DNA of 64,000 nucleotides from Octopus vulgaris (taxonomy: Eukaryota), in contig OX597826.1 of NCBI GenBank assembly GCA_951406725.2, positions 67,270,001-67,334,000 of the forward strand, given 5' to 3'. Numbering within the stretch: position 1 is the first letter of the stretch; the number at the start of each line of letters is the position of its first letter. Shown here piece by piece: positions 23,454-24,120 of this stretch. The notes under the pieces are model-generated. The model was not told the origin of the DNA. It worked only from the letters and a program-made list of their open reading frames with translations, and did no database searches. Position numbers and translations under genes: made by a program.

Positions 23454-23458
<5 letters not shown>

Positions 23459-24120
23459 CAATTGAGGATAAAATCTTTAAAAGAAATTATCAGTAGTCAG
23501 CGTGAAAAACCTCGTAAGAGAAAAAATCCGTAAATTCTTCCTCTTTGAAAATATTCATTTATATTATATTGAGGGTACTACTATTCGTAGATACCAACAC
23601 GCTAAGAGGGACCAATGCGGTCAAAACTACTAAAAATAAACAAAATTTTACGGATTCTTTCTCTTACGAGGTTTTTCACGCTGGCTACTGATAATTTCTT
23701 TTAAAGATTTTATCCTCAATTGTTAATTTATATTTTTCACCGGAATAGTTCAATACTGAATTTTTATTCCGACTAGGCAATTTGTTACCGAAATGCATTG
23801 CGAAAAAGCCCGCCATTTTCATAGATATGTAAGGATAAACATTCGTACAAGCTACGACGAATTCTACGGTTGGCTATCGAGTTTGTAATGTTATGTTTTT
23901 TCTTATATTTCTTGAGTTTGTTGCACTGACGAACATGAAATGCATATTCTGCATTAAATGCGAAATCACATGTGATATGTAACTGAATTCTTTTTTAAAA
24001 TGATGTGTTTTGAAGTTTTGCATTCGGTAAAATTTTGTTTATTTTTAGTAGTTTTGACCGCATTGGTCCCTCTTAGCGTGTTGGTATCTACGAATAGTAG
24101 TACCCTCAATATAATATAAA
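23454..24120 (+). mobile_element. Retrozyme-like fold-back insertion in (TA)n with circularly permuted arms
   Basis: 23454-23534 is the reverse complement of 23647-23727 (2 mismatches); 23558-23651 is the perfect reverse complement of 24027-24120; HHR inside. Confidence 0.8.
23914..23990 (+). ncRNA. Type I hammerhead ribozyme
   Basis: Stem I gttgca/tgtaac (extendable by gagtt/aattc); CTGACGA 23926-23932; long stem II acat..aatgca-tattc-tgcatt..atgc; GAAA; palindromic stem III atcacatgtgat; AUA triplet. Confidence 0.8.

What the first reader, a model, noticed from the sequence alone, without database searches (positions are those of the whole stretch)
23454..24120. Circularly permuted fold-back insertion implies a ~500-nt circular or multimeric hammerhead RNA (candidate cephalopod retrozyme)
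Seen: on the + strand, 23647-24120 reads A-C-HHR-B. On the - strand, 23651-23454 reads B-linker-A continuously (B is 94 bp and identical; A is 81 bp with 2 mismatches). A therefore precedes B in one arm and follows it in the other, which a single linear monomer template cannot give. The implied unit A-C-HHR-B-linker is about 500 nt, has no credible ORF, and has one near-intact type I HHR (23914-23990). Both outer ends stop at TA-rich positions fused to (TA)n tracts, and the arms overlap at a short shared ttttac. Established: metazoan non-LTR retrozymes are non-coding HHR-bearing repeats that form circular RNAs and are thought to be mobilised by PLEs. Inference: a recent insertion copied from a circular or concatemeric RNA, primed from both ends of a cut (TA)n.
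Basis: partly seen in the sequence, partly recalled or inferred. Interest (0 to 1): 0.88.

Follow-up and report, generated by a model that had tools for sequence, protein, structure and literature searches.

The report
Hammerhead retroposon with Penelope-type two-site insertion
This fold-back is one copy of a family of hundreds of short non-coding repeats that carry a hammerhead ribozyme motif and were likely pasted into TA runs by a Penelope-type retrotransposon; its 'permuted' layout is that retrotransposon's ordinary end pattern and does not by itself show a circular RNA.

Summary
The layout is real. The locus is one copy of a young, ORF-less family with a 496-nt period (314 exact hammerhead matches; two older subfamilies at about 89% and 73% identity) that sits in (TA)n. 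Copies have ragged 5' ends and two fixed 3' ends: E1 (end of B) and E2 (end of A, about 104 nt later). Of 63 fold-back junctions, 49 pair one E1 arm with one E2 arm, 1 is E2+E2, none E1+E1, 13 other. An ORF-bearing Penelope-like element (PLE) in this genome does the same (8 of 8). So the 'permutation' is the known PLE tail present at one end only. A linear 1.17-unit RNA (577 nt) can template this locus; no circle is implied. A circle stays possible: repeats within one insertion share variants, so some unit is re-read. But 126 of 164 arms read through the cleavage site, 1 starts at it, and the young hammerhead has A10.1·C11.1 instead of G-C. No ORF-bearing parent was found; RNA and cleavage are untested. 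Verdict: new member of the PLE-dependent retrozyme-like kind. The useful extra is the near-strict one-site-per-DNA-end rule.

The parts
23398..23455 (.). Left (TA)n target tract
   Evidence: 29 copies of AT
23454..23534 (-). A' (81 bp): distal part of the tail; the arm's 3' end is the fixed end E2 at 23454
23535..23557 (-). Linker (23 bp): proximal part of the ~104-nt tail between E1 and E2
   Evidence: present in natural head-to-tail dimers
23558..23651 (-). B' (94 bp), 5'-truncated start of the inverted arm; B-linker-A folds as a multi-helix domain in which B pairs with A (predicted)
   Evidence: (z -3.5)
23647..23651 (.). 5-bp microhomology at the head-to-head junction of the two arms
   Evidence: sequence
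23647..23727 (+). A (internal copy), 5' start of the plus arm
23728..23913 (+). C, non-coding body of the unit
23914..23990 (+). Type I hammerhead motif: helix I 23914-23925/23978-23990, CUGACGA 23926-23932, A10.1 23933, C11.1 23961, GAAA 23962-23965, palindromic helix III 23965-23976, predicted cut after 23977
23991..24026 (+). Spacer between hammerhead and B
24027..24120 (+). B; the arm's 3' end is the fixed end E1 (about 24112-24120, blurred by TA)
24123..24243 (.). Right (TA)n-rich tract

Best explanation
The locus is one copy of a dispersed, ORF-less 496-nt hammerhead-bearing repeat family with two fixed 3' ends, likely copied from a more-than-one-unit RNA by a Penelope-like RT-endonuclease supplied in trans, which would cut (TA)n and prime one DNA end at each of the two start sites. 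Inferred steps: the protein binds the structured B-linker-A domain; one cut end starts cDNA at E1 (end of B), the other at E2 (end of A); the two cDNAs grow inward, stop at variable places and join head to head by microhomology (5 bp here); if only one arm is kept, a single-arm copy results. The template is uncleaved at the hammerhead for most arms. For this locus a linear 577-nt RNA is enough. Tandems are regenerated at some step by re-reading one unit, either by a jump between redundant tails of a linear RNA or by rolling on a circle; the DNA does not tell these apart.
For: Family: 1637 candidates, 40 scored, 43 near-full matches at 97-100%; 314 exact hammerhead matches, 0 in the reversed control; 1533 matches to a tail motif shared by all subfamilies. 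Ends: in 111 loci, 49 of 63 fold-back junctions are E1+E2, 1 E2+E2, 0 E1+E1, 13 other; 46 of 48 non-fold-back loci end at E1 (26) or E2 (20); 49 of 50 gives p=9e-14. 136 of 164 E1/E2 ends run into TA-rich DNA. Control: an RT + GIY-YIG PLE with many intact ORFs has its own tail, and in 8 of 8 fold-backs among 30 loci the arm opposite the tail stops at its E1. Old subfamily: 11 of 15 opposite arms end at E1, none at E2. Literature: tail at one of the inverted pLTRs (PMC3846280, PMC8557442, passages); two internal RT start sites bound the tail, both strands are cut and extended, hammerhead mutants do not block insertion in vitro (PMC11167929, main text). 126 of 164 arms cross the cleavage site, 20 cross two, 1 starts at it. 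In 30 of 49 fold-backs the E1 arm reaches further upstream than the E2 arm, so it was not copied from it.
Against: No autonomous PLE with a homologous pLTR or tail was found, so the partner is inferred from layout, shared target and similar age only. The tail is about 104 nt against the 30-40 nt described. Exceptions to the rule: L185 and L208 are E2+E2. Six fold-backs are pure palindromes (both arms start at the same template position; 1.5 expected, p=0.003), which self-priming explains as well. The test for a linear master with distinguishable units was negative: only one same-polarity recurrent difference (ref 38, L023 and this locus) among the discordant sites.
Confidence: 0.82

Rival explanations
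1. True circular retrozyme: hammerhead cleavage of tandem transcripts gives a 496-nt monomer that is circularised, and PLE RT rolls on the circle. Compatible with the two-site priming; differs only in the template.
For: Perfect-register tandems up to 2.45 units. Non-CpG variants seen in 4 or more loci are shared by all segments of a locus in 65 of 77 cases, and 15 of 120 locus-private variants are shared too (between-locus sharing 17%), so one unit is re-read. Hammerhead core kept over about 27% divergence with compensatory changes in helix II. The young subfamily gained a perfect helix III palindrome (dimer -15.8 vs -10.2 kcal/mol). Excess of 5' ends near E1 (13 of 30 at risk vs 5.8 expected). 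The monomer folds well as a circle (-114 vs shuffles -94 +/- 6). Circles are shown for coral, mussel and axolotl retrozymes (PMC7229834, passages) and proposed for PLEs (PMC4209133).
Against: Not needed for this locus, nor for 31 of 49 fold-backs that fit within 616 nt. A10.1 in 148 of 149 aligned young hammerheads (sample chosen by patterns that left this site free) breaks a pair called highly conserved in PMC4209133; helix I is formed with probability only 0.05-0.2 in full context. No array of 3 or more units among 111 loci. No junction scar at 331/332 (154 of 154 invariant). Circle-specific collision of arms one period apart: 3 seen, 1.1 expected, p=0.09. The excess near E1 is uncorrected, the hazard rises with length, and AT-rich microhomology or a linear 5' end explain it too.
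Confidence: 0.33
2. Self-priming: one cDNA from E2 snaps back and copies itself, and the endonuclease trims the tail from one end (model in PMC3846280).
For: Six pure palindromic fold-backs of 49; gives E1+E2 pairing by construction.
Against: Needs the E1 arm to lie within the E2 arm; false in 30 of 49 and false here (C and the hammerhead are only in the E1 arm, the linker only in the E2 arm).
Confidence: 0.12
3. The unit is only the 5'-truncated pLTR of an ORF-bearing PLE that was not sampled.
For: PLE insertions are mostly truncated to the pLTR; the PLE found here has a pLTR of similar size; only part of the family was examined.
Against: The sequence upstream of a unit is always another unit, up to 2.45 periods, never coding DNA, in 111 young, 30 old and 30 middle/old loci; tblastn with both PLE ORFs, run on the first 60 young and 30 old loci and on the loci, hits only unrelated flanking insertions; the ORF-less period persists in three subfamilies.
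Confidence: 0.07
4. Assembly artefact (chimeric fold-back).
For: This exact junction was not bridged by the laid contigs; fold-backs are a known long-read artefact (recalled).
Against: The arms are not mirror images; 49 loci share the same two ends with different junctions; contigs of an independent run (X15) show 9 joints of the same inverted-arm-to-plus-arm type (tables 5 and 5c).
Confidence: 0.02

Closest known systems
Metazoan non-LTR retrozymes (Cervera and de la Pena 2020, PMC7229834; Li et al. 2026, bioRxiv 10.64898/2026.07.22.740005)
   Same: Non-coding, AT-rich (32% GC), type I hammerhead in each unit, monomers and dimers, co-occurs with PLEs.
   Different: Period 496 nt (described RNAs 170-400 nt; Li's consensus range 51-972); no long arrays seen; A10.1·C11.1; circles and cleavage not shown; insertion ends show PLE two-site signature, which those texts (as far as read) do not report.
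EN+ Penelope-like elements, Neptune/Nematis type (Craig et al. 2021, PMC8557442; Arkhipova et al. 2013, PMC3846280)
   Same: Partial tandems, inverted 5'-truncated arm, tail at one end only, microsatellite target, hammerhead with palindromic helix III.
   Different: No ORF; tail about 104 nt rather than 30-40; no sequence-homologous autonomous partner found.
PAc Poseidon element in vitro (Frangieh et al. 2024, PMC11167929)
   Same: Two internal RT start sites flanking the tail; AT-rich target; hammerhead dispensable for insertion.
   Different: In vitro no strand difference in start site was seen; here genomic copies use one site per DNA end almost strictly.
Non-autonomous Chlamys elements such as MRC1 (PMC8557442, passage)
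   Same: Non-autonomous PLE derivatives with pLTRs and head-to-tail copies.
   Different: Those resemble their autonomous partner at the 3' end and belong to a clade lacking canonical hammerheads.

Membership tests
non-LTR retrozyme | Type I hammerhead in the repeat unit | tested here: met
non-LTR retrozyme | Fully canonical core including G10.1-C11.1 | tested here: not met
   A10.1 in 148 of 149 young copies; G-C in middle and old subfamilies
non-LTR retrozyme | Non-coding, low GC, no LTR/PBS/PPT | tested here: met
   (GC 0.32); PBS/PPT not searched separately
non-LTR retrozyme | Short tandem repeats with at least two consecutive hammerheads | tested here: met
   met in some copies (L022, L143, L013; 7 of 85 hammerhead-spanning arms), not at this locus; no array of 3 or more
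non-LTR retrozyme | Self-cleavage of the RNA | not testable with these tools
   only folding
non-LTR retrozyme | Abundant linear and circular monomer RNA | tested here: inconclusive
   only assembled contigs were available; they cannot show ends, strand or circles
EN+ PLE insertion type | Partial tandem, inverted truncated arm, tail at one end | tested here: met
EN+ PLE insertion type | AT-rich or microsatellite target | tested here: met
   136 of 164 ends
autonomous PLE | RT + GIY-YIG ORF | tested here: not met
pLTR derivative of a resident PLE | Sequence homology to an autonomous pLTR | tested here: inconclusive
   none among 30 GIY-YIG loci of 6136 candidates; most PLE families not sampled
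tRNA-derived SINE | tRNA-like head with Pol III boxes | tested here: not met
   0 tRNA genes in 3 loci; one B-box-like 9-mer per unit, at chance level

The most novel reading that the evidence does not exclude
The family moves as a 496-nt circular RNA cut by a dimeric hammerhead, and a PLE RT-endonuclease dimer seated on the structured B-linker-A domain primes the two cut DNA ends from two different sites of one RNA. The near-strict E1+E2 pairing would then be an in vivo rule of PLE integration, and the insertion ends a direct genomic fingerprint that a retrozyme is mobilised by PLE machinery.
Probability: 0.28. Interest if true: 0.62.

Novelty: new member of a known kind. Interest (0 to 1): 0.38.

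Why it matters
The class and the layout are known. Two things are useful. First, PLE mobilisation of retrozymes has been argued from co-occurrence and pLTR homology; here an ORF-less hammerhead family carries the PLE insertion signature itself, with an active PLE in the same genome as control. Second, the count (49 E1+E2, 1 E2+E2, 0 E1+E1) turns 'the tail is optional at one end' into a testable rule: each integration uses both start sites, one per DNA end. The three subfamilies also give a natural test of whether hammerhead cleavage matters, since the youngest lost G10.1 and gained a perfect helix III palindrome.

Tried and rejected
Rfam: no hammerhead call. Linear master with distinguishable internal and tail A: suggested, rejected (one of this locus's two differences is private, the other recurs in one locus of another subtype). 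Parent PLE: GIY-YIG search and comparison of 30 loci, old-subfamily search (27, 31), G10.1 pattern (50, 52); the L068 match was an independent old-subfamily insertion and the C8 cluster spaced 3.5 kb apart was a local duplication, not an ORF element. Expression: no RNA holder listed; runs guessed as RNA gave contigs only; X1 covers the unit at depths like the neighbouring repeat, X5 did not cover it despite a listed share of 0.44; nothing is concluded. 5' pile-up at the cleavage site: none. Circle-specific arm collision: not significant. Long-range B-A helices are 99% paired but show no double changes; compensatory changes lie only in local hairpins, so that domain is predicted, not shown. Literature on A10.1·C11.1 activity: nothing useful. 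Earlier scan notes: none. No description of this family or of a cephalopod retrozyme in searches; Repbase was not searchable, the supplement of PMC7229834 could not be read, one file of PMC4209133 was not searched, and the supplements of the 2026 preprint were not seen.

Full report
Observation. The described layout is in the sequence. The minus arm (23651 to 23454) reads B-linker-A; B matches 24027-24120 over 94 identical bases and A matches 23647-23727 over 81 bases with 2 mismatches. The arms overlap by 5 bp at 23647-23651. (TA)n tracts flank both sides. Rfam gives no hammerhead hit, but 23914-23990 has the type I boxes and helices.

Family. The plus arm has 1637 candidate matches in the 2.8-Gb genome; 40 were scored and gave 43 near-full matches at 97-100%. 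A hammerhead pattern matches 314 places and a tail motif shared with older copies 1533. A natural dimer gives a period of 496 nt. There is a middle subfamily at about 89% and an old one at about 73% with period 499. None has an ORF or PLE coding sequence attached. Locus-private variants run at a median 0.34% per site, so the young subfamily is recent. The host looks octopod-like from recalled features; no call tested this.

Ends. I parsed 111 loci (120 fetched, 9 duplicates dropped; identity filter 85%, so a few middle-subfamily copies are included). 5' ends are scattered. 3' ends fall at two places: E1, the end of B, and E2, the end of A, about 104 nt further on. Of 63 fold-back junctions 49 are E1+E2, 1 is E2+E2, none E1+E1, and 13 involve another end (9 of these are an E2 arm facing an arm that stops short of E1). 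Of 48 loci without a fold-back 26 end at E1, 20 at E2, 2 elsewhere. 49 of 50 against a free choice gives p=9e-14. In 30 old loci, chosen for having the tail, 11 of 15 opposite arms end at E1 and none at E2. One further E2+E2 case (L208) is in the 30 loci. 136 of 164 ends run into TA-rich DNA.

Control. The genome holds thousands of GIY-YIG candidates (6136, 150 scored), many from one family with an intact 781-aa RT + GIY-YIG ORF and a linker cysteine motif of the Neptune/Nematis kind described in PMC8557442. It inserts in (TA)n, has a tail of about 40 nt, and in 8 of 8 fold-backs among 30 tail-selected loci the opposite arm stops at its own E1. So 'A before B in one arm, after it in the other' is the PLE tail at one end only, described in PMC3846280 and PMC8557442 (passages) and explained in vitro by two internal RT start sites (PMC11167929, main text read). 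This PLE shares no detectable DNA similarity with the unit; it is a candidate partner by target and age only.

Does it need a circle? Not here. The plus arm starts at unit position 1 and the minus arm at 378, so a linear RNA of one unit plus tail (577 nt) contains both, and genomic copies of that form exist (L023, L020). 31 of 49 fold-backs fit within 616 nt; 18 need more, up to 1155 nt. The longest arm is 1213 nt, and no array of three units was seen. For a circle: segments of one insertion share variants (65 of 77 for widespread non-CpG alleles, 15 of 120 for private ones), so tandems are rebuilt from one unit at some step; my test for a linear master with distinguishable units was negative; and 5' ends are in excess near E1 (13 of 30 vs 5.8, in a subset chosen by the hammerhead pattern that omits 9 listed loci fetched earlier). 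Against, or neutral: 126 of 164 arms cross the cleavage site and 1 starts at it; the cleavage junction is invariant; arms colliding one period apart are not in significant excess. Re-reading could be rolling on a circle, as proposed for PLEs in PMC4209133 (parts 1-2 of 4 read), or a jump between redundant tails.

Two primings, not snap-back. In 30 of 49 fold-backs the E1 arm reaches further upstream than the E2 arm, in 13 the reverse, 6 are level. The E1 arm therefore cannot in general be a copy of the E2 cDNA, and cannot be here. The 6 level cases are pure palindromes, more than chance (p=0.003); they fit self-priming or one RT running into the other on one RNA. Junctions overlap in 27, are blunt in 7 and have a gap in 15.

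Hammerhead. Across 25 hand-picked copies of the three subfamilies, the boxes are kept and 4 of 10 helix II pairs change on both sides; covariation exceeds 500 of 500 shuffles and all slid controls, though relatedness inflates this. Middle and old copies have G10.1-C11.1; the young subfamily has A·C in 148 of 149 and a perfect 12-nt helix III palindrome that favours a dimer. PMC4209133 lists G10.1-C11.1 as highly conserved and reports low activity for PLE hammerheads; the 2026 preprint (parts 1-3 of 5 read) found cleavage in 1 of 9 Xenopus dimers. Activity here is unknown; weak or dimer-dependent cleavage is the likelier guess. B-linker-A folds as a multi-helix domain (z -3.5; 95.8% of cells paired) that spans E1 and is a candidate binding platform; its long-range helices show no compensatory changes.

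RNA and assembly. Only contigs could be laid; they cannot show ends or circles. Contigs of run X15 show 9 joints from the inverted arm to the plus arm at other positions, so fold-backs of this family exist outside this assembly; this locus's own junction was not bridged.

Comparison and verdict. It works like a non-autonomous PLE passenger and looks like a non-LTR retrozyme (PMC7229834 and PMC7761336, passages). Membership is partial: motif, non-coding unit and dimers are met; the canonical 10.1 pair is not met in the young subfamily; cleavage and circles are untested. I found no description of this family in the searches listed, with the gaps stated. Other papers seen: PMC8969392 and PMC544870 (passages); the rest as search listings only. 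Novelty: new member of a known kind; interest 0.38, mostly for the one-site-per-end rule and the direct PLE fingerprint on an ORF-less hammerhead family.

Noticed in passing
L094:244-5460 (G000:C6:133343243-133348459): Active-looking PLE with two overlapping ORFs (479 aa with no Pfam hit above cut-off, then 781 aa RT + GIY-YIG), many intact copies, and a U3-A8 variant minimal hammerhead in its pLTR (read by eye). Canonical EN+ PLEs are described as single-ORF.
   Followed up: partly
L057, L052, L081, L076, L064 (PLE 3' ends): Several other PLE families in this genome, each ending in (TA)n, most with a 35-45 nt tail and a hammerhead-like motif (read by eye); L057 shows a fold-back with the tail at one end only.
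   Followed up: partly
window 22700-23397: Degenerate mariner-type transposase remnant (motifs recalled; frames) whose end abuts the left (TA)n tract.
   Followed up: partly
window 24526-24700: Another very high-copy repeat with hammerhead-like boxes (a GAAAC box upstream of a CUGAUGA box) next to a TA tract; probably a PLE-derived 3' fragment. High depth in all four laid runs.
   Followed up: no
L072:2850-3264: A further short fold-back repeat in (TA)n with a type I hammerhead of similar design (long helix II, 4-bp helix III, AUA triplet) but no detected similarity to this unit; suggests more such families.
   Followed up: no
L216:1-3700 (G000:C8:100863000-100866700): Array of an unrelated roughly 550-nt unit in head-to-tail and inverted arrangement, beside a locally duplicated middle-subfamily copy.
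   Followed up: no
unit ends, window 24104-24120 and 23454-23470: E1 and E2 are both preceded by the same short motif (CCTCAAT) followed by AT-rich bases, and E2 resembles the tail end of the 781-aa PLE; too short to test.
   Followed up: partly
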